Part shown: positions 11,092 through 17,516 of the stretch, piece after piece
Position numbering within the stretch: position 1 is the stretch's first letter
Layout: each line of letters opens with the position of its first letter
Assembly: GCA_964605185.1 (NCBI GenBank)
Contig: CAZSBF010000005.1
Span: forward strand, 3,625 to 67,624
Source: an uncultured Planctomycetaceae bacterium
Lineage (GTDB): Bacteria > Planctomycetota > Phycisphaerae > UBA1845 > UTPLA1
Direction of reading: 5' to 3'
Length of the DNA stretch: 64,000 bases
The notes under the pieces: generated by a model
What the model was told of the DNA's origin: nothing
Seen by the model: the letters and a program-made list of their open reading frames with translations, nothing else
The model's database searches: none
Made by a program: the position numbers and the translations under genes

Positions 11092-12366
11092 ATGTCACGA
11101 CGTTTGATGGTCGTTGGGTGCGGTCTAGTCGGTTCAATCATGGGTTGCGTCTCCGGGTGTGCTCAATCGGCCTGGCCGCAGTGGGGCGGGCCGAACCGCA
11201 ATTTCACCGTGGCCTCCGGTCGTTTGGCCGAAACATGGCCCGAAGGCGGTCCGAAGCGTTTGTGGAGCCGGGCCCTGGGCGATGGCTACTCCACCATCGT
11301 GTCTGACGGTACCACGCTCTACACGATGTACCGCAAGGACAAGGACGACCCGAACGAACACGTGATCGCCCTCGATGCCGCAACCGGCGCGACCCGCTGG
11401 GAACATTCCTACCCAGCGCCCTACTTGTGCATCGATCCGAATGATGAAGACAAGAAGCAAACGCCGCAATTCGGCGCCGGCCCGAACGGCACGCCCGTGC
11501 TTGTCAGCGGCCGACTGTATTCCATCGGCTTCACCGGCATGATGTGCTGCCTCGATGCCGCCACTGGAAAGCAGATCTGGTCCCACGATCTGTTCAAGGA
11601 GTATGGCGCGACGATGCTTGTCTGCGGATATGCAGCGAGCCCGATCGCTTATCACGACACGATCATCGCGCTGGTCGGCGGCAAGGGACACGGTGTAATG
11701 GCATTCGACCAATCTACGGGAAAAGTGGTTTGGCAGAGCGGCGACATGGATTGCAGTTATTCCTCGCCGGTGTTGACGACAGTCGATGGGGAAGATCACC
11801 TCGTCGCGTACATGTCGGGCGAAGTGGTCGGCTTGTCGCCGAAATCCGGCGAAATCCACTGGAGCATTACACACCGCAATCCGGTGAACTCGAATTGCAT
11901 TTGCACGCCAATCGCCTGCCCGAATCATCAGATCTACTTCGTCAACGGCGGCGACTCGGCCGGTGGAAAAATGGTTCGCCTAGCCAGGAAGGGGGGCAAG
12001 ATCCAGCCCGATGAAATCTGGGCCAACAAGAAACTCGCCGGTGGCTTGACGGATGCCGTGCGAATCGGTGATCACTTTTACGGGGGCAACGGTCGCGGCT
12101 TCTTCGTTGGCTTCAACGCAAAGACCGGACAGATCGCATGGCAGGAACGCGGCTACCCCAGTGCCCGCGCCATTGCCGCCGATGGAAAACTGATTCTTCT
12201 GGACGAGGAGGGTCGTTTGTCGCTGGTCACGGCGACACCGGGCGGGTTGGTTCAGCACGGAAAGGCGACGTTGCTGACGAAAGAAGCCTGGTCGGCGCCC
12301 ACCCTTATTGGGACAAAGCTCTACTTGCGTGATCGCAAAACGATTATGGGCGTGGACTTAGGATAA
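11092..12366 (+). CDS. PQQ-like beta-propeller repeat lipoprotein
   Basis: Lipobox VSGC after a hydrophobic leader. WPQWGGPNRNF start and repeated G-x-v-W beta-propeller blades (ATGATRWE, ATGKQIWS, STGKVVWQ, KSGEIHWS, KTGQIAWQ). Confidence 0.8.
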   Translation: MSRRLMVVGCGLVGSIMGCVSGCAQSAWPQWGGPNRNFTVASGRLAETWPEGGPKRLWSRALGDGYSTIVSDGTTLYTMYRKDKDDPNEHVIALDAATGATRWEHSYPAPYLCIDPNDEDKKQTPQFGAGPNGTPVLVSGRLYSIGFTGMMCCLDAATGKQIWSHDLFKEYGATMLVCGYAASPIAYHDTIIALVGGKGHGVMAFDQSTGKVVWQSGDMDCSYSSPVLTTVDGEDHLVAYMSGEVVGLSPKSGEIHWSITHRNPVNSNCICTPIACPNHQIYFVNGGDSAGGKMVRLARKGGKIQPDEIWANKKLAGGLTDAVRIGDHFYGGNGRGFFVGFNAKTGQIAWQERGYPSARAIAADGKLILLDEEGRLSLVTATPGGLVQHGKATLLTKEAWSAPTLIGTKLYLRDRKTIMGVDLG

Positions 12367-12479
12367 TCCGCGACAACCGGCGATTGCCGTTCCAACGCCT
12401 TGCCCGAATTGGGGTTTCCCCTGAAGATACCCTCAAACCAATAAGTCCTCGCGCATGCGAGAAATAGAGGGTAATTCTT

Positions 12480-12611
12480 ATGTTTGGACTTCTCGGTGGA
12501 TTCAGCCTGAGCGATCTGATCTTTCCGCTCCTCGTCGGCGTGTTTTACTTCGTCAACGACATCATTCGGATGCTCTTTCCGGCCATCTTCAATCCAACCG
12601 GAATGATGTAA
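12480..12611 (+). CDS. putative small hydrophobic peptide (43 aa)
   Basis: ATG after AGAGGG. MFGLLGGFSLSDLIFPLLVGVFYFVNDIIRMLFPAIFNPTGMM. Weak resemblance to the 4088..4210 peptide. No other support. Confidence 0.25.
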   Translation: MFGLLGGFSLSDLIFPLLVGVFYFVNDIIRMLFPAIFNPTGMM

Positions 12612-12842
12612 CCGGAGCACATGCGGCGACCTCATTACCAAAATGACGGGTCGATGGTCATTCGTGCGCGGACGACTATCGCGAACCACCAAAATGGCAG
12701 AAGCCAAACGCTTCCGGTACAGTCGTCGCAACGTTTCGGTGCAGCATTAGTGATTGGCCAATACAGCAACACAATTCTCCTGCACCGTCATGTGCGGATT
12801 TCTTGAGCACGCATTTTCACCACCACTTTCATTGAGGGTGCG

Positions 12843-13826
12843 ATGACAAAGGACATTTTCGTTTTCGTCGAACAGCGCAGCGGCGCCGTCCTTTCTGCGG
12901 GGCTTCAGGCCCTGTCCGCGGCGACGCAACTCGCCGCCAAGACCGGTGGCAAGGTAGTGGCCGGAATCATCGGTCATGATCTCGGCAGCGTGGCTGCCAA
13001 GATCGACAACACCGGCGCAGCGGCGGTCCATGTCTGTGATGCGGAGCCGCTCAAGAACTACAACGCGTTGAAATACACCCGCGCGCTGGTGGGGATGATT
13101 CAAAAGGCCGATCCGCAGATCGTGCTGTTGGCGGCTTCCTTCATGGGACGCGACCTGGCCCCGCGCGTGGCCATGCGGCTCGATGCGGGCCTGGCCACCG
13201 ATTGCACGGAAGTGGATATCGAAGGTGGCGCGCTCATTGCACGACGCCCAATTTACAACGGTAAGGCCTACAGCCGCGTGCATTTCAACGGCGGTCGTGT
13301 GCAAATGGCGTCGGTCCGGCCGAACACCTTTCCACTCCCCAGCGGCGGCGGCGCGGCCGAGCACGTTGCTTTTGCATATGCAGCCGATGCCGCGGACGAC
13401 CGGCAAATCACCAAAGAAATTGCCCGTACTGGCGGGGAAGAAAAAGACGTCACCGAGGCCTCCATTGTGGTTAGCGGTGGTCGCAGCCTCAAGAGCGAGG
13501 CGAATTTCAAGATACTCTATGACCTCGCTCATGCTCTCGATGGCGCGGTGGGTGCCAGCCGGGCGGCCTGCGACGCGGGTTATCAGCCGCACAGCCGGCA
13601 GGTCGGCCTCACAGGCAAGACGGTGACGCCGCAGTTGTACGTGGCGTGCGGTATCAGCGGCGCAATCCAGCATCTCGCGGGCATGCGCGGCAGCCGGCGC
13701 ATCGTCGCTGTGAATACAGACGCCGAAGCGCCGATCTTCAAGGTCGCGGACATCGGCGTGGTCGGGGATCTCTTCACGTTCGTGCCACTTCTGACGGAGG
13801 AAGTGAAGAAAGTTAAGGGGCACTAG
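12843..13826 (+). CDS. etfA: electron transfer flavoprotein subunit alpha
   Basis: 327 aa. [51 protein letters not shown] and [11 protein letters not shown] are canonical EtfA FAD-domain blocks. Confidence 0.9.
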
Positions 13827-13849
13827 GCCGCGTTAAGATTGAGATTGGA

Positions 13850-14293
13850 ATGGCAACGCTAAATCGAAGCATCTTGCAAAGTTTGGCATTGAGTCGTCTA
13901 GAGGACGCAAAGGCCTTGCTCGATAGGGGTCGATTCTCCGCTGCGTATTATCTTGCGGGATATTCAGTCGAATGTGGAATCAAGGCGTGCTTTGCGAAAC
14001 AAGTACGGGCCCATGATTTTCCAGAAAAAGGTAAGGCAGATAAGGTCTTTATTCATGATCTTGTTGAACTGGTAAAACTGGCCGGGCTGGATTCTCATCA
14101 CAAGGAGGATTGTGATCGCGATCCAGATTTTAAATCCCGCTGGAGCGTGGTGCAGAAATGGAAGGAGCATGATAGATACGACCCCCTTTGGTTGGATGAC
14201 CCAACCGCGATGAAAACCAAAGCCACGGCCATGATCCGTGCGATTGAAGATACGGATCACGGAGTCCTACAATGGTTGAAAAGATACTGGTAG
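13850..14293 (+). CDS. HEPN-like domain protein (147 aa)
   Basis: All-helical. AAYYLAGYSVECGIKA (HEPN helix-2-like), HDL--L-K--G, EHDRYD (RY motif of classical HEPN), and R130-x6-H137 (RAIEDTDH) near the C-terminus. Visibly lower GC than its neighbours. Confidence 0.6.
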   Translation: MATLNRSILQSLALSRLEDAKALLDRGRFSAAYYLAGYSVECGIKACFAKQVRAHDFPEKGKADKVFIHDLVELVKLAGLDSHHKEDCDRDPDFKSRWSVVQKWKEHDRYDPLWLDDPTAMKTKATAMIRAIEDTDHGVLQWLKRYW

Positions 14294-14712
14294 ACAGAGA
14301 AATTGCGGCAGGTGAGTCCCTCTTGAAGGAACTGGACAAGAGGAAAGTCGCTGTGACGGCGGCCTTCTGGTTCTATGAGCCGGAGTACGAGCGATGGCGT
14401 CTCGTTATTGCCATGCCGCTGTGTGACAAGGAAGGCCCTATCGTAGCATACGACCTTCTTCAAAAGGCATTGGACAAGCTGCCCAAAGATAGGCGTTTGG
14501 AATTGACCGACATCAACGCTGAAAACACCAAAAACACTGTCGTACAGGCCCTTTGCAAGATGATCCAAATTGCGCCCGGCAGCGGCAACCTGCGAGTAAG
14601 CCGCAGCTCTGTGAACGGAATCTTCATCGACGATGCAGTTGTCTATCGTACATCCATTGCGATCAAAGAACACAGAGTGTCTGCGACGAAAGCAAAGTCG
14701 CGCAAAAAGTAG
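14272..14712 (+). CDS. hypothetical protein, partner of the HEPN-like gene (146 aa)
   Basis: ATG with GGAG 9 nt upstream. Overlaps the HEPN-like gene by 22 nt and stops 3 nt before the next gene. No recognisable nucleotidyltransferase (GS-x-D-x-D) or HTH motif. Basic C-terminal tail KAKSRKK. Confidence 0.6.
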   Translation: MVEKILVDREIAAGESLLKELDKRKVAVTAAFWFYEPEYERWRLVIAMPLCDKEGPIVAYDLLQKALDKLPKDRRLELTDINAENTKNTVVQALCKMIQIAPGSGNLRVSRSSVNGIFIDDAVVYRTSIAIKEHRVSATKAKSRKK

Positions 14713-14715
14713 TTT

Positions 14716-16740
14716 ATGAACCCAATCGCAATGACACTCCTGCTCCTGGCCGCCTGGGGCTACTTCGGCATGCAAATGCTGCGCCGGTATCGCCTCATGA
14801 CGGTTGGACCGGGTGAAAACCGGCTCGACAACATCGGCGAACGAATCAAGCGAACATGGCAATATGCATTCGTGCAAAAGCGCATGCCGCGCTACTACTG
14901 GGCCGGCATCGCCCACAAAGTCATCTTCGCCGGCTTCATGGTGCTGTTGTTCCGGACGCTGCTGCTATTTGGCCGCGGGTACTCGGAGGATTTTGATTTC
15001 TGGGGCATCCTTTCCATCGACGGATTCATCGGTGGCGCGTATTCCTTTGTGAAGGATGTCTTCGCCATTCTCGTCATCCTCGGCGTGGCAGTGTTCTTTT
15101 ACTACCGCCTCGTCAAGAAACTTCCCCGAATGACGCTCTCCGGTGAAGGGTTGCTCATCCTCGGCATCATCATGACCATGATGCTCAGTGATATTCTCCA
15201 CGACGCGGCAGAGCAGGTCTTACAGGGCCGAAGCTGGACGTGGGCCGAACCTGCCGGATCGCTGGTTGCGCTTTCGTTGGCACGCGCGAGCGAAGGCACA
15301 CTCGAAGTACTTTCACGCCTCGGTTTCTGGACGCACGTAAGCCTCGTCTTGCTGTTCCTGAATCTCCTGCCCAGCAGCAAGCACTTCCACGTCATTACCG
15401 CGATTCCGAATGTCTTCACCCAGAGCCTTTTTCCCCGTGGTCGACTCCCCAACGTCGCCGACATCGAGGGCAAGATCGAGCGCGAGGAGACGCTGGGGCT
15501 GAAGTCCATCGAGCAGCTCACGTGGAAGGGCGTGCTCGATCTCTACACCTGCACCGAGTGCGGCCGCTGCACCGACAATTGCCCCGCCGCGAATACGGGC
15601 AAGCTGCTCTCGCCGAAGCAACTGACGCTCGACCTCCGCGATTACCTTTACAAGAAGGAAACGGCATTGGTCGCTGCAAGAGCCGGTGGCTCGAATGGGG
15701 ATGGGCTGGCCGAGCTGGTGCCCCATGTCATCAAGCCCGAAGTCCTCTGGGCATGCACCACCTGCGGAGCCTGCGAGACCGAGTGCCCCGTGTTCATCAC
15801 CTATGTCGACAAGATCGTCGACATGCGCCGCAACCTCGTGATGGAAAAGTCCGAGTTTCCCGCCGAGCTGCAAAACGCCTTCCGCGGCATGGAATCCAGC
15901 GGCAATCCGTGGAGTTTCCCTGCGAGCGATCGCGCCGCATGGACCGAAGGGCTCGATGTGCCGCGCATGGCCGAAAAACCCGACGCCGCCGTGCTCTTCT
16001 GGGTGGGGTGTTCAGCGTCCTTCGACGATCGGGCGCGAAAGATCGCCCGCGCCACAGCCAGCCTGCTCAAAGCTGCCGATGTCGATTTCGCCATCCTCGC
16101 GGAAGAGGAGCAATGTACGGGCGACCCGGCGCGCCGAGCGGGCAACGAGTTCCTTTTCCAAATGCTTGCCCAGATGAACGCCGAAACGCTGAACCGCTAT
16201 CAGCCCAAGACCATCGTTACGACGTGCCCGCATTGTTTCAACACGCTGCTCAACGAATATCCCGACTTCGGCGCCAAGTTCAAGGTCGTGCATCACTCCG
16301 AGTTCCTGTCGAACCTCGTCCGAGAGGGCAAGCTCAAACCATCCAACCGCATCGATGCCAAAGTCGCCTTCCACGATTCGTGCTACCTCGGCCGGTACAA
16401 CGAGATCTACGAGCCGCCGCGGGAAACGCTTCGCAAGATCCCCGGCCTCACCGTTCTTGAGCCTCGCGAAACACGAGATCGCGGCATGTGCTGCGGAGCC
16501 GGCGGCGCCCAGATGTTCAAGGAAGAAGAACACGCTCGCGAAGGCGTGACGGGCGAACGCGTCAATGAAAAGCGTACCGACCAGTTGCTCGCCACGAAAC
16601 CGGACATGGTCGCGTCGAGTTGCCCGTTCTGCCAGCGCATGTTGATCGACGGGTTGGCCGGTCGGAGTCGCGAGGATGTGCAGCAGTACGATATTGCCGA
16701 GTTGCTGTGGAAATCAGTCGAAACTCCGTCAACCAAATGA
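14716..16740 (+). CDS. membrane-anchored Fe-S oxidoreductase (NarI/HdrE-like TM domain + 2x[4Fe-4S] + two CCG domains; HdrD/GlpC-like, ETF-linked type)
   Basis: About 230-aa polytopic N-terminus. CTECGRCTDNCP and CTTCGACETECP ferredoxin motifs. Cys-rich CCG-type repeats (WVGCSASFD, CPHCFNTL, FHDSCYLGRY, MCCGAGG, SSCPFCQ). Confidence 0.85.
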   Translation: MNPIAMTLLLLAAWGYFGMQMLRRYRLMTVGPGENRLDNIGERIKRTWQYAFVQKRMPRYYWAGIAHKVIFAGFMVLLFRTLLLFGRGYSEDFDFWGILSIDGFIGGAYSFVKDVFAILVILGVAVFFYYRLVKKLPRMTLSGEGLLILGIIMTMMLSDILHDAAEQVLQGRSWTWAEPAGSLVALSLARASEGTLEVLSRLGFWTHVSLVLLFLNLLPSSKHFHVITAIPNVFTQSLFPRGRLPNVADIEGKIEREETLGLKSIEQLTWKGVLDLYTCTECGRCTDNCPAANTGKLLSPKQLTLDLRDYLYKKETALVAARAGGSNGDGLAELVPHVIKPEVLWACTTCGACETECPVFITYVDKIVDMRRNLVMEKSEFPAELQNAFRGMESSGNPWSFPASDRAAWTEGLDVPRMAEKPDAAVLFWVGCSASFDDRARKIARATASLLKAADVDFAILAEEEQCTGDPARRAGNEFLFQMLAQMNAETLNRYQPKTIVTTCPHCFNTLLNEYPDFGAKFKVVHHSEFLSNLVREGKLKPSNRIDAKVAFHDSCYLGRYNEIYEPPRETLRKIPGLTVLEPRETRDRGMCCGAGGAQMFKEEEHAREGVTGERVNEKRTDQLLATKPDMVASSCPFCQRMLIDGLAGRSREDVQQYDIAELLWKSVETPSTK

Positions 16741-17300: not shown

Positions 17301-17516
17301 ATGCCCGGAAAATCAGACGACAACTTCAAGAAGCACTTCGAACGACAGCGCGACAAGAAAGACCGCGATCGCAAGGGCCTGCCGGGCGAAGATGAGGCCC
17401 CGTTGCCGCCTCCCGTGGAGCCGATCAAGAAGGGCAGCGACGAGCCCGGCCGAAACGACCTGTGCCCCTGCGGCAGCGGCAAGAAGTTCAAGCAGTGCTG
17501 CCTCCTGAAAAAGTAG
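17301..17516 (+). CDS. small SEC-C motif (zinc-binding) protein, 71 aa
   Basis: Highly charged N-terminus, then [18 protein letters not shown]. This is nearly identical to the SecA C-terminal tail in this window ([18 protein letters not shown]). Confidence 0.7.

What the first reader, a model, noticed from the sequence alone, without database searches (positions are those of the whole stretch)
13827..14715. Low-GC HEPN-like gene plus an unrecognisable partner, wedged precisely into the etfA / Fe-S oxidoreductase operon
What the sequence shows:
- Two overlapping genes (13850..14293 and 14272..14712, 22-nt overlap) sit 23 nt after the etfA stop and end 3 nt before the start of the ETF-linked membrane Fe-S oxidoreductase.
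- They are therefore embedded in an otherwise functionally coherent operon without disturbing it.
- By eye their GC content is in the high 40s percent, against roughly 60% or more for both neighbours.

The two proteins:
- The first protein is all-helical with HEPN-like features: AAYYLAGYSVECGIKA, EHDRYD, and an R-x6-H (R130..H137) close to the C-terminus.
- The second protein (146 aa) has no minimal-nucleotidyltransferase signature (no G-S-x-D-x-D), no HTH and no family I can name.

Classical HEPN toxins pair with MNT antitoxins, and the MNT gene comes first. Here the order is reversed and the partner is different.

Inference: a horizontally acquired two-gene toxin-antitoxin or abortive-infection-type module with a non-canonical partner, possibly an undescribed HEPN system.
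Basis: partly seen in the sequence, partly recalled or inferred. Interest (0 to 1): 0.7.

Follow-up and report, generated by a model that had tools for sequence, protein, structure and literature searches.

The report
HEPN-like gene pair inside ETF operon
Two overlapping small genes inserted between two electron-transfer genes are a copy of a very widespread, unnamed, mobile gene pair (a probable RNA-cutting HEPN protein plus a partner of unknown fold) that also sits in phages, plasmids and E. coli prophages and most likely acts as a toxin-antitoxin or anti-phage module.

Summary
Genes A (13850-14293) and B (14272-14712) overlap by 22 nt. They sit between etfA and the Fe-S/CCG oxidoreductase and form the lowest-GC 889-nt stretch of the window.

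A is a HEPN-fold protein. The conserved residues are E41, K45, H69, W104 (all 133/133) and R109-Y110 (131/133). This is the "alternative histidine" pattern described for AbiV/AF0298-like HEPN domains.

B has no Pfam, NCBIfam, PADLOC or PDB match and is not an MNT. It belongs to a large unnamed family (3,796 clusters at 50% identity).

A and B co-occur in all of roughly 130 loci examined, across bacterial phyla and two archaeal MAGs, almost always with the same 22-nt overlap. No third gene is conserved. The pair is also on a plasmid, in 42 viral contigs, and in 190 of 5,426 E. coli genomes (a lambdoid prophage in the one inspected).

Among etfA relatives, 16 of 30 junctions are empty and others hold different cassettes, including a DUF4258 toxin-antitoxin pair. 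So this is an insert, but an old one: synonymous sites are saturated and both genes are under purifying selection.

The low GC is a property of the module (lower than flanks in 79 of 80 genomes), not a sign of recent transfer. Toxicity and defence are untested.

Verdict: new variant of a known kind.

The parts
12843..13826 (+). etfA (electron transfer flavoprotein alpha subunit), upstream flank of the insert
   Evidence: Pfam ETF 6.4e-40 and ETF_alpha 1e-34. In 16 of 30 relatives this gene is followed within 8-112 nt by the Fe-S oxidoreductase.
13827..13849 (+). 23-nt spacer between the etfA stop and the gene A start. It ends in GAGATTGGA, a possible ribosome-binding site.
   Evidence: Sequence. 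The tail TAAGATTGAGATTGGA is identical in the 80%-identical relative L002. No promoter-like site lies here. The ribosome-binding role is inference.
13850..14293 (+). Gene A: 147-aa HEPN-fold protein of the AbiV/AF0298-like 'alternative histidine' type. It is the probable RNase effector.
   Evidence: - Pfam HEPN scores 22.0 bits, equal to the cutoff, over residues 13-53 only.
- PADLOC PDC-M28A 1.6e-9.
- phrog_5737 1.6e-31.
- AlphaFold2 pLDDT 92.5, all-helical.
- The top nine Foldseek PDB hits are all HEPN-containing proteins, with probability 0.84-1.00, TM 0.43-0.61 and E 0.1-0.9.
13970..13984 (+). Codons of E41 to K45 in helix 2 of A (ECGIK)
   Evidence: E41 and K45 are invariant in 133 of 133 relatives. 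A conserved acidic residue in helix 2 lies next to the HEPN active site according to PMC3710099.
14054..14056 (+). Codon of H69 of A, the candidate alternative catalytic histidine
   Evidence: - Invariant in 133 of 133 relatives.
- It lies between helix 29-49 and helix 71-77 of the model.
- This is the position described for the alternative His of AbiV/AF0298-like HEPN domains.
14165..14179 (+). Codons E106-H-D-R109-Y110 of A, a remnant of the HEPN Rx4-6H motif with R kept and H lost
   Evidence: E106 is present in 127 of 133 relatives, R109 in 131 of 133 and Y110 in 131 of 133. A His at +5 to +7 occurs in only 3 of 131.
14261..14264 (+). GGAG inside the G138-V139 codons of A, 7 nt before the ATG of B. 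It is the probable Shine-Dalgarno sequence for the coupled translation of B.
   Evidence: GGAGT or GGGGT precedes the B start in nearly all loci. G138 is present in 132 of 133 relatives and V139 in 120 of 133. The Shine-Dalgarno function is inference.
14272..14293 (+). 22-nt overlap of A and B
   Evidence: - An in-frame start codon for B (ATG in most; GTG or TTG in 13) lies 22 nt before the end of the A stop in 82 of 85 genome and metagenome loci. The exceptions are L048, L076 and L081.
- The same is true in 43 of 44 viral, plasmid and phage loci.
- It is also seen in E. coli.
14272..14712 (+). Gene B: 146-aa partner of unknown family and fold, an alpha/beta protein. It is the probable protein regulator or antitoxin of A.
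   Evidence: - No Pfam, NCBIfam or PADLOC hit, and 0 of 61 relatives hit PADLOC.
- phrog_5760 1.5e-9.
- AlphaFold2 pLDDT 84.3.
- No significant Foldseek match in the PDB or BFVD.
- The family has 3,796 clusters at 50% identity.
14656..14709 (+). Lineage-specific 18-residue Lys/Arg-rich C-terminal tail of B (IAIKEHRVSATKAKSRKK)
   Evidence: It is absent from the family consensus, which ends near YxYR. pLDDT is about 50. A similar K-rich tail occurs in L001.
14716..16740 (+). Membrane Fe-S/CCG oxidoreductase, downstream flank of the insert
   Evidence: Pfam CCG 8.8e-34 and 4Fe-4S dicluster domains. It directly follows etfA in empty-site relatives.

Best explanation
**What it is**
Genes A and B are one copy of a widespread, self-contained, mobile two-gene conflict module of the toxin-antitoxin / abortive-infection kind.

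**Protein A**
- A is a small HEPN-fold protein.
- Its likely active site uses the retained arginine of the HEPN motif (R109), an alternative invariant histidine (H69) and helix-2 residues E41 and K45.
- This arrangement was proposed for AbiV/AF0298-like HEPN RNases.
- A is inferred to be the RNA-cleaving effector.

**Protein B**
- B is a non-enzymatic alpha/beta protein.
- It is made by translational coupling: its start lies 22 nt inside A, and its Shine-Dalgarno sequence is formed by A's conserved Gly-Val codons.
- B is inferred to bind A and keep it inactive, or to gate it, until a trigger releases the RNase and growth stops. The trigger could be loss of the module or phage infection.

**History in this genome**
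- The module was inserted long ago between etfA and the Fe-S oxidoreductase.
- It is transcribed with that operon.
- It has since been kept by purifying selection.

**Shown versus inferred**
- Shown: fold class of A, conserved residues, strict pairing and overlap, mobility, insertion into a junction that is empty in relatives, and selection.
- Inferred: RNase activity, A-B binding, the direction of regulation, and the phenotype.
For: **Fold and active-site pattern of A**
- Pfam HEPN hit at threshold.
- AlphaFold2 pLDDT 92.5.
- The top nine Foldseek PDB hits are all HEPN-containing proteins, including AF0298/2hsb.
- E41, K45 and H69 are invariant in 133 of 133 relatives, and R109 in 131 of 133. 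Rx4-6H occurs in 3 of 131.
- This matches the variant described in PMC3710099.

**Strict pairing**
- B follows A in 85 of 85 genome and metagenome loci.
- B follows A in 44 of 44 viral, plasmid and phage loci.
- The pair also occurs in L093, L094 and L096.
- The 22-nt overlap is almost always present.
- No third gene is conserved.

**Rates and residues fit an effector with a binder**
- A is more conserved than B: mean column identity is 48% against 31%.
- B's near-invariant residues are hydrophobic or aromatic (L, G, W, Y), not catalytic-looking.

**Mobility**
- At least 580 species genomes across phyla, plus two archaeal MAGs.
- Plasmid pAJ4131, where the pair lies close downstream of BrnT/BrnA with one gene between.
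- Klebsiella phage Kp4864-1 and 42 IMG/VR contigs.
- 190 of 5,426 E. coli genomes carry it. In the one inspected it lies in a lambdoid prophage between ren and the nin genes.

**It is an insert**
- 16 of 30 etfA relatives have etfA followed by the Fe-S gene within 8-112 nt.
- The same junction elsewhere holds a DUF4258 + YokU/MqsA-like pair, another HEPN pair, or DUF488.

**Selection and relatedness**
- pN is 0.12 against pS 0.64-0.74 for both A and B.
- A is related to a defence-candidate protein, PDC-M28A.
Against: - No experiment or test of toxicity, neutralisation or phage defence exists for this family in the papers searched.
- The canonical HEPN catalytic motif is absent. Whether H69 and R109 are adjacent in space could not be checked, because no model coordinates were available.
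- Foldseek E-values for A are weak (0.1-0.9) and the Pfam hit covers only the N-terminal 41 residues.
- Neither protein has a recognisable DNA-binding domain for autoregulation, which most type II antitoxins have.
- The flanks of 38 genome loci are mostly housekeeping genes, not defence islands.
- A is mildly acidic (median pI 6.2) and B nearer neutral to basic (7.9). This is the opposite of the usual basic-toxin / acidic-antitoxin pattern.
- The module has been stably inherited in one operon for a long time. That is also compatible with a domesticated function.
Confidence: 0.55

Rival explanations
1. This is a sensor-effector abortive-infection system rather than an addiction module. B is not an inhibitor. 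It is the sensor or adaptor that recognises a phage component or an RNA and activates or targets the HEPN protein A. A alone is inert.
For: - The pair sits in the accessory-gene slot of lambdoid prophages, between replication/ren and nin. This is the kind of place where the solo HEPN defence protein HepS is encoded (PMC13043305).
- Prophage HEPN defences such as HepS and Tha are activated by phage proteins.
- A is related to the defence candidate PDC-M28A.
- Foldseek's weak hit list for B is dominated by uS3, BolA and KH-type RNA-binding folds. The N-terminal half of B has alpha-beta-beta-alpha-alpha-beta order.
- Some B-family proteins carry their own C-terminal HEPN-like extension.
Against: - All fold matches for B are non-significant: E is at least 0.02 and query TM at most 0.37.
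- Tight translational coupling with B downstream is what is expected if B must never be scarcer than A. That fits an inhibitor better than an activator.
- Most chromosomal copies are solitary among housekeeping genes.
Confidence: 0.2
2. The polarity is reversed. B is the toxin or effector, and the HEPN-like protein A is a catalytically dead antitoxin or regulator. This follows the usual type II order of antitoxin first, toxin second.
For: - A lacks canonical Rx4-6H.
- The first gene of most type II modules is the antitoxin (background knowledge).
- A is the more acidic protein and B the more basic one.
- HEPN domains without catalytic residues acting as binding or regulatory modules are known (PMC3710099).
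Against: - A keeps an invariant polar set (E41, K45, H69, R109) typical of an active site.
- B's conserved positions are hydrophobic or aromatic, with no catalytic-looking set.
- B evolves faster than A, which is the usual behaviour of antitoxins.
- B matches no known toxin fold.
Confidence: 0.1
3. This is a housekeeping or domesticated function. The pair is an accessory of the ETF / Fe-S oxidoreductase pathway, or a general RNA-processing factor, and not a conflict system.
For: - It is co-transcribed with and tightly packed into the ETF operon.
- It is retained there under purifying selection across lineages whose etfA proteins are only 57-88% identical.
- The ETF-linked copies form one small clade in neighbour-joining trees of both A and B.
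Against: - 16 of 30 relatives lack it at this junction, and others have unrelated cassettes there.
- Among 80 other species genomes only L058 has ETF genes nearby.
- It occurs on a plasmid, in phages and in prophages.
Confidence: 0.05

Closest known systems
AbiV / AF0298-like 'HEPN-T' domains with an alternative histidine (Anantharaman et al. 2013, PMC3710099)
   Same: - It has the HEPN fold.
- The arginine of the motif is kept and the motif histidine is lost.
[quoted passage not shown]
- A conserved acidic residue sits in helix 2 (E41).
- AF0298 (2hsb) is among the Foldseek hits.
- There are weak AbiV profile hits over residues 17-52.
   Different: - Scores are below the AbiV family cutoffs: PF18728 13.1 against 27.1 bits, and TIGR04498 15.7 against 27.
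- Lactococcal AbiV (201 aa) does have 91-RNHKSKH-97, and its antitoxin is an RNA (abiV2, type III). Source: bioRxiv 10.1101/2024.05.05.592566.
- Here the partner is a protein, and no repeats or RNA family are present.
HepT/MntA (HEPN-MNT) type VII toxin-antitoxin systems
   Same: It is a small HEPN protein encoded with one small partner in an overlapping two-gene operon. It is extremely widespread and mobile.
   Different: - The partner is not a minimal nucleotidyltransferase.
  - It has no GS...DxD motif.
  - It has a beta1-beta2 hairpin where the NTase fold has a helix.
  - Its best Foldseek hit is a chain of a HEPN-MNT complex entry (7ae2_B, presumably the MNT antitoxin), at only E 0.02 and TM 0.36.
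- The gene order is reversed.
- A has no Rx4HxY motif with the AMPylated tyrosine context.
RnlA/RnlB and LsoA/LsoB (HEPN toxin first, small protein antitoxin second)
   Same: The order is HEPN effector gene first, then a protein partner of about 120-130 aa. Both are associated with phage conflict. This comparison rests on background knowledge and PMC8266594 as listed.
   Different: - RnlA is a three-domain protein of about 357 aa with a canonical HEPN motif.
- No RnlA or RnlB structure appears among the Foldseek or sequence hits for A or B.
PADLOC phage-defence candidate PDC-M28 (Payne et al., bioRxiv 10.1101/2024.01.29.577857)
   Same: A and its relatives hit the PDC-M28A model at 19-36 bits, covering most of the profile.
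   Different: - PDC-M28 is a three-family cassette, FAM_01482>>FAM_02546>>FAM_01036.
- None of the 61 aligned B relatives, nor the plasmid and phage copies, hits any PADLOC model.
- No third gene is conserved here.
- PDC-M28 itself is only a candidate.
HepS (Gifsy-1 prophage solo HEPN abortive-infection protein, PMC13043305)
   Same: It is a prophage-encoded HEPN protein in the accessory slot of a lambdoid prophage. It serves as a model for how such a protein can be held inactive and then triggered.
   Different: HepS works alone, has canonical R100-x4-H105, and is a tetramer. Our family always has partner B and lacks that motif.

Membership tests
HEPN superfamily | Four-helix up-down bundle HEPN fold | tested here: met
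   - AlphaFold2 model has pLDDT 92.5 and is all-helical.
- Foldseek PDB ranks 1-9 are all HEPN-containing proteins (1wol, 1ufb, 4nqf, 1o3u, 2hsb, Csm6 5fsh, 3c18), with probability 0.84-1.00 and TM 0.43-0.61. E-values are only 0.1-0.9.
- Pfam PF05168 scores 22.0 bits, equal to the gathering cutoff, over the N-terminal 41 residues only.
HEPN superfamily | Canonical Rx4-6H RNase motif before helix 4 | tested here: not met
R109 is conserved in 131 of 133 relatives, but a His at +5 to +7 is present in only 3 of 131. The window protein reads R109-YDPLWLDD.
AbiV/AF0298-like alternative-histidine HEPN group (PMC3710099) | Motif Arg kept, motif His absent, a second strongly conserved His N-terminal to the motif in the helix-2/helix-3 insert, and a conserved acidic residue in helix 2 | tested here: met
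   - H69 is invariant in 133 of 133 relatives and lies between model helices 29-49 and 71-77.
- E41 is invariant in 133 of 133.
- R109 is present in 131 of 133.
- The group definition was read.
- Spatial proximity of H69 and R109 could not be measured.
AbiV family proper (Pfam PF18728, NCBIfam TIGR04498) | Score above the curated family cutoff | tested here: not met
   PF18728 scores 13.1 bits against a cutoff of 27.1. TIGR04498 scores 15.7 against 27. Both cover residues 17-52 only.
Type III toxin-antitoxin (AbiV1/abiV2-like, RNA antitoxin) | Structured or repeated antitoxin RNA next to the toxin gene | tested here: not met
   No tandem repeats and no Rfam match at E up to 1 in 12300-15500. 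The adjacent conserved element is a protein-coding gene under purifying selection.
HepT/MntA (HEPN-MNT) type VII toxin-antitoxin | Partner is a minimal nucleotidyltransferase (hG[GS], [DE]x[DE]) encoded upstream of the HEPN gene | tested here: not met
   - No NTase Pfam hit in 61 B relatives.
- No such motifs in the B alignment.
- The secondary-structure order differs.
- The best Foldseek hit is 7ae2_B, a chain of a HEPN-MNT complex entry, at E 0.02 and TM 0.36.
- B is downstream of A in every locus.
PADLOC PDC-M28 candidate system | Three-family cassette with all components detected | tested here: not met
   Only A matches (PDC-M28A at 1.6e-9). B and the neighbours do not match any model. The cassette composition comes from the paper's supplement.
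Toxin-antitoxin module (generic, protein-protein) | Two small adjacent co-oriented genes, strictly co-inherited, with patchy mobile distribution | tested here: met
   - Co-occurrence in about 130 of 130 loci, with a conserved 22-nt overlap.
- Found in phage, plasmid and prophage.
- Empty sites exist in relatives.
Toxin-antitoxin module (generic, protein-protein) | One product is growth-inhibitory and the other neutralises it by binding | not testable with these tools
   This needs expression experiments.
Anti-phage defence system | Enrichment next to known defence genes, or demonstrated protection | tested here: inconclusive
   - Of 150 flanking genes from 38 genome loci, very few hit PADLOC models. 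AbiU, mad2/mad3, MzaE, PDC-M72A, Ankyrin and E1-E2 models are each matched by one gene. Most Pfam hits are metabolic.
- The E. coli copy inspected sits in the lambdoid-prophage accessory slot.
- No protection data were found.

The most novel reading that the evidence does not exclude
The B family (about 3,800 clusters at 50% identity, with no Pfam, NCBIfam or PADLOC model and no structural relative) is a new class of protein partner for HEPN nucleases. It may be an RNA-binding, KH/BolA-like module. Together with an alternative-histidine HEPN RNase it would form a previously undescribed toxin-antitoxin or anti-phage system. That system would be present from Planctomycetota to E. coli prophages and archaea, and would work by a control mechanism different from AMPylation (MntA), RNA antitoxins (abiV2) or RnlB-type inhibition.
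Probability: 0.4. Interest if true: 0.7.

Novelty: new variant of a known kind. Interest (0 to 1): 0.58.

Why it matters
- HEPN RNases are central effectors of bacterial immunity and toxin-antitoxin systems. How each one is kept silent is the key mechanistic question.
- This pair defines a very large, phylogenetically broad HEPN module whose partner protein belongs to no described family or fold. It is missing from current defence and toxin-antitoxin catalogues.
- The pair also occurs in 190 complete E. coli genomes, in a lambdoid prophage in the one inspected. It is therefore directly testable in a standard model.
- The window adds an evolutionary point. A selfish-looking cassette can be lodged inside a core metabolic operon, riding its transcription, and be kept for a very long time.
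- The same etfA/Fe-S junction has independently received other toxin-antitoxin-like cassettes.
- The persistent AT-richness of the module in every host is a caution against reading low GC as recent transfer.

Tried and rejected
rejected, because the columns are not conserved.
- **B as a diverged MNT:** rejected. It has no motifs and a different strand/helix order. The Foldseek hit to a HEPN-MNT complex chain is only E 0.02 and TM 0.36.
- **B in curated libraries:** nothing in Pfam, NCBIfam, PADLOC, PDB sequences or BFVD. Only phrog_5760, of unknown function, matched.
- **A by PDB sequence profile:** no hits.
- **PDC-M28 identity:** rejected. PDC-M28 is a three-gene cassette and only A hits it.
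- **RNA antitoxin or repeats:** none found.
- **Conserved third gene:** none found.
- **Defence-island context:** not seen.
- **Target-site duplications, flanking repeats, own promoter or terminator:** nothing above chance.
- **Recent horizontal transfer as the cause of low GC:** rejected.
- **ETF accessory role:** rejected on distribution.
- **Organism of the window:**
  - Exact look-ups gave no name.
  - The nearest named carrier of the same etfA-A-B-Fe-S arrangement is an uncultured Phycisphaeraceae MAG (L058).
  - The taxon of the window is therefore only suggested.
- **C-terminal extensions of long B relatives as HEPN domains:**
  - Pfam found nothing.
  - hhalign against the A profile aligned only helices 1-2, with E 0.005 and probability 7.5%.
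  - PDB sequence searches were negative.
  - This is kept as a lead only.
- **Literature:** no paper mentions PDC-M28, or the E. coli accessions WP_001038620 and WP_000520499.
Full report
**1. Observation**

- Gene A is 13850-14293 (147 aa) and gene B is 14272-14712 (146 aa).
- They overlap by 22 nt.
- A starts 23 nt after the stop of the upstream gene.
- B ends 3 nt before the ATG of the downstream gene.

The upstream gene is EtfA. The downstream gene is a CCG/4Fe-4S membrane oxidoreductase.

Composition sets the insert apart.
- GC is 0.480 for A and 0.508 for B, against 0.624 and 0.596 for the flanks.
- GC3 is 0.486 and 0.619, against 0.735 and 0.761.
- The 889-nt insert is the lowest-GC window of that size in the whole 64 kb (0.08th percentile).

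**2. Protein A**

Profile matches:
- Pfam HEPN matches exactly at its gathering score (22.0 bits) and only over residues 13-53.
- AbiV profiles give sub-threshold hits over the same helices.
- PADLOC's candidate model PDC-M28A matches at 1.6e-9.
- PHROG 5737, of unknown function, matches at 1.6e-31.

Structure:
- An AlphaFold2 model built on 51 homologues is confident (pLDDT 92.5) and all-helical.
- Its first nine Foldseek hits in the PDB are all HEPN-containing proteins: ST0689, TT1696, 4nqf, TM0613, AF0298, Csm6 and an NTase-HEPN protein.
- Foldseek probabilities are high but E-values are modest, 0.1-0.9.
- I take the HEPN fold as supported.

Conserved residues in 133 family members:

| Residue | Conservation |
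|---|---|
| E41, K45, H69, W104 | 133 of 133 |
| R109, Y110 | 131 of 133 |
| E106 | 127 of 133 |
| Canonical Rx4-6H | 3 of 131 |

The HEPN survey by Anantharaman et al. describes exactly this pattern for AbiV and AF0298-like domains (PMC3710099). The motif Arg is kept and the motif His is lost. A second, strongly conserved His lies in the insert between helices 2 and 3, and a conserved acidic residue sits in helix 2. The authors proposed this as an alternative RNase active site.

In the model, H69 lies between helix 29-49 and helix 71-77. I could not measure distances because model coordinates are not exposed.

**3. Protein B**

- B has no Pfam, NCBIfam or PADLOC hit. The only match is PHROG 5760, of unknown function.
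- None of 61 relatives hits PADLOC. Pfam gives one stray hit among the 61.
- A profile search of PDB sequences finds nothing credible.
- The AlphaFold2 model (pLDDT 84.3) is alpha/beta, with the order H-E-E-H-H-E-H-E-E plus a low-confidence C-terminal helix.
- Foldseek finds nothing significant in the PDB or BFVD.
- The top PDB hit is a chain of a HEPN-MNT complex entry (7ae2_B, presumably the MNT antitoxin), at E 0.02 and TM 0.36.
- The beta1-beta2 hairpin, where NTases have a helix, and the absence of GS/DxD motifs argue against an MNT.
- Much of the weak hit list consists of uS3, BolA and KH-type proteins. The N-terminal half of B has the alpha-beta-beta-alpha-alpha-beta order of type II KH-like folds. 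This is a lead, not a result.
- The family's near-invariant positions are hydrophobic or aromatic (L6, G14, L21, W33, W42, L44, Y60, Y125). This looks structural rather than catalytic.
- A full HMMER scan finds 3,796 clusters at 50% identity at E up to 1e-3, and 2,544 at E up to 1e-10. Most members are about 130 aa.
- RefSeq calls the protein 'hypothetical protein'.

**4. The pair is one module**

They include Acidobacteriota, Planctomycetota, Cyanobacteria, Bacteroidota, Desulfobacterota, Gammaproteobacteria and two archaeal MAGs.
- In all 85 loci that carry A, a B homologue follows on the same strand.
- An in-frame start codon for B (ATG in most; GTG or TTG in 13) lies 22 nt before the end of A's stop in 82 of 85. 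The exceptions are L048, L076 and L081.
- The GGAG that precedes the B start is formed by A's conserved Gly138-Val139 codons. This implies translational coupling, which is an inference.
- The same arrangement holds on plasmid pAJ4131 of Acinetobacter johnsonii. There the pair lies close downstream of BrnT/BrnA, with one DUF6236 gene between.
- It also holds in Klebsiella phage Kp4864-1 and in all 42 IMG/VR contigs found.
- 190 of 5,426 complete E. coli genomes carry it. In the one inspected it sits in a lambdoid prophage between ren and the nin genes.
- No third gene is conserved.
- Flanking genes are mostly metabolic, and few match defence models.
- A is more conserved than B: mean column identity is 48% against 31%.

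**5. The insertion site**

Using EtfA as a probe, I examined 30 metagenome loci that contain both etfA and the oxidoreductase.

| State of the etfA / Fe-S junction | Loci |
|---|---|
| Empty, genes 8-112 nt apart | 16 loci, including relatives with 69-78% EtfA identity (L089, L092, L100) |
| A-B pair | L093, L094, L096 (plus the window, L001/L002 and L058) |
| DUF4258 toxin + YokU/MqsA-like zinc-ribbon protein | L120, L122, L133, L138 |
| Distant HEPN + unrelated partner of about 105 aa | L141/L142, L146 |
| DUF488 | L151, whose partial EtfA (C-terminal 177 residues) is 90% identical to the window's |
| Longer gap without a convincing ORF | L095, L127, L136 |

- The closest relatives by A and B identity also have the pair right after etfA: L001/L002 at about 80%, and L003-L005 at about 60%.
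- An uncultured Phycisphaeraceae MAG (L058) has the same arrangement. Its EtfA is 57% identical to the window's.
- In neighbour-joining trees of A and of B, all ETF-linked copies fall in one small clade. There are no support values.
- Between the window and L001/L002, pN is 0.12 and pS is 0.64-0.74 for both genes. dS is saturated and similar to that of etfA and the Fe-S gene.

The pair is therefore an insert, not a universal ETF component. It is old, has co-diverged with its flanks, and is maintained by selection. No target duplications, flanking repeats, own promoter or terminator stand out, so it is probably transcribed with the operon.

**6. Low GC**

Across 80 genomes the A-B segment is AT-richer than its flanks in 79. 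The mean difference is -6.4 points, and the segment tracks host GC with r = 0.91. Low GC is thus a standing property of the module, not evidence of recent arrival here.

**7. Mechanism**

The best-supported reading is a mobile two-gene conflict module.
- A is an alternative-histidine HEPN RNase.
- B is a translationally coupled, non-enzymatic protein that binds and restrains or gates it.

What is shown: the fold class, the residue pattern, the strict pairing and overlap, mobility, empty sites, and selection.

What is inferred: RNase activity, A-B binding, the direction of control, and the phenotype.

Rival readings:
- B is a sensor or activator in an abortive-infection system. This fits the prophage slot and the precedent of the HEPN defences HepS and Tha.
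- The polarity is reversed, with B as the toxin. The points in favour are the missing canonical motif, the usual gene order and the pI values.
- The pair has a domesticated housekeeping role.

**8. Comparison with known systems**

- It is not HepT/MntA: there is no NTase partner and the gene order is reversed.
- It is not AbiV proper: scores are below the cutoffs, and AbiV's antitoxin is an RNA. No RNA element or repeats occur here.
- It is not PDC-M28, which is a three-family cassette of which only the A-like member matches.
- It is not HepS, which is solo and has a canonical motif.
- HEPN-first order with a small protein partner recalls RnlAB/LsoAB, but neither appears in the structure or sequence searches.
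- I found no paper on this pair.

I rate it a new variant of a known kind. The HEPN-based two-gene module is familiar, but the partner family and the likely control mechanism are undescribed.

**9. Leads not closed**

- Some B-family proteins carry C-terminal extensions with HEPN-like helix 1-2 signatures and RRNAVIH or RDHVIH motifs (P0315, P0238).
- P0315 stands alone without an upstream A. This hints at a recurrent functional tie between the B domain and HEPN domains.
- Support is weak: Pfam is negative and hhalign probability is 7.5%.

Noticed in passing
L120:1750-2273, L122:6022-6548, L133:3942-4462, L138:6026-6546 (same etfA / Fe-S junction in relatives): In four relatives the junction holds a different overlapping pair. 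It consists of a DUF4258 protein (Pfam 1.5e-22) and a 74-aa YokU/MqsA-like zinc-ribbon protein. L138 has an extra DUF2283 ORF, and L122 has an additional Yip1/zinc-ribbon membrane protein. The junction looks like a recurrent landing site for small toxin-antitoxin-like cassettes.
   Followed up: partly
L141:1574-2410, L146:6031-6837 (same junction): A second, distant HEPN protein of 161-166 aa occupies the same junction.
- The L146 copy matches Pfam HEPN at 4e-5 over the full profile.
- The L141 copy has WRYGGGH, which is Rx4H.
- It is followed by an unrelated 104-108-aa protein with no family.
- This may be another uncharacterised HEPN pair.
   Followed up: partly
L151:938-1345: This relative's partial EtfA (C-terminal 177 residues) is 90% identical to the window's. 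It carries a DUF488 gene in the junction, in a gap of 925 nt, instead of A-B.
   Followed up: no
window 1-64000; compare L058:4211-5002, L123:4173-4964, L158:4141-4935: No etfB is detectable anywhere in the 64-kb window (tblastn with EtfB from relatives). More distant relatives have etfB directly upstream of etfA. L092, L093, L096 and L100 also lack an adjacent etfB.
   Followed up: partly
P0315 (locus L211:369-1289), P0238: Some B-family proteins of about 306-316 aa have a C-terminal extension with a HEPN-like helix 1-2 signature and RRNAVIH or RDHVIH (Rx4H).
- P0315 has no A gene upstream.
- P0238 still has an upstream gene overlapping by 22 nt.
- Pfam and PDB sequence searches on the extensions were negative.
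   Followed up: partly
L212:9001-9797 (E. coli EC21Z-014 chromosome, NZ_CP101274.1 1458658-1459454): 190 of 5,426 complete E. coli genomes carry the pair, annotated 'HEPN domain-containing protein' plus 'hypothetical protein'. In the one inspected it lies in a lambdoid prophage between ren and ybcN/ninE/rusA. This is an experimentally convenient copy.
   Followed up: partly
window 14656-14709: B in this lineage has an 18-residue Lys/Arg-rich tail that the family lacks. Its stop is 3 nt from the Fe-S gene's ATG. L001 shares this state, whereas L058, L093, L094 and L096 keep a spacer of about 50-60 nt.
   Followed up: no
window 12300-12840: A stretch of about 500 nt upstream of etfA has lower GC (0.51-0.53). 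It contains a minus-strand 136-aa ORF (12321..12731) and two terminator-like hairpins on the minus strand.
   Followed up: no
window 17301-17516: A small 71-aa ORF ends in a SEC-C-like [13 protein letters not shown] motif. It lies between a cNMP-binding-like gene and a KdtA-like gene.
   Followed up: no
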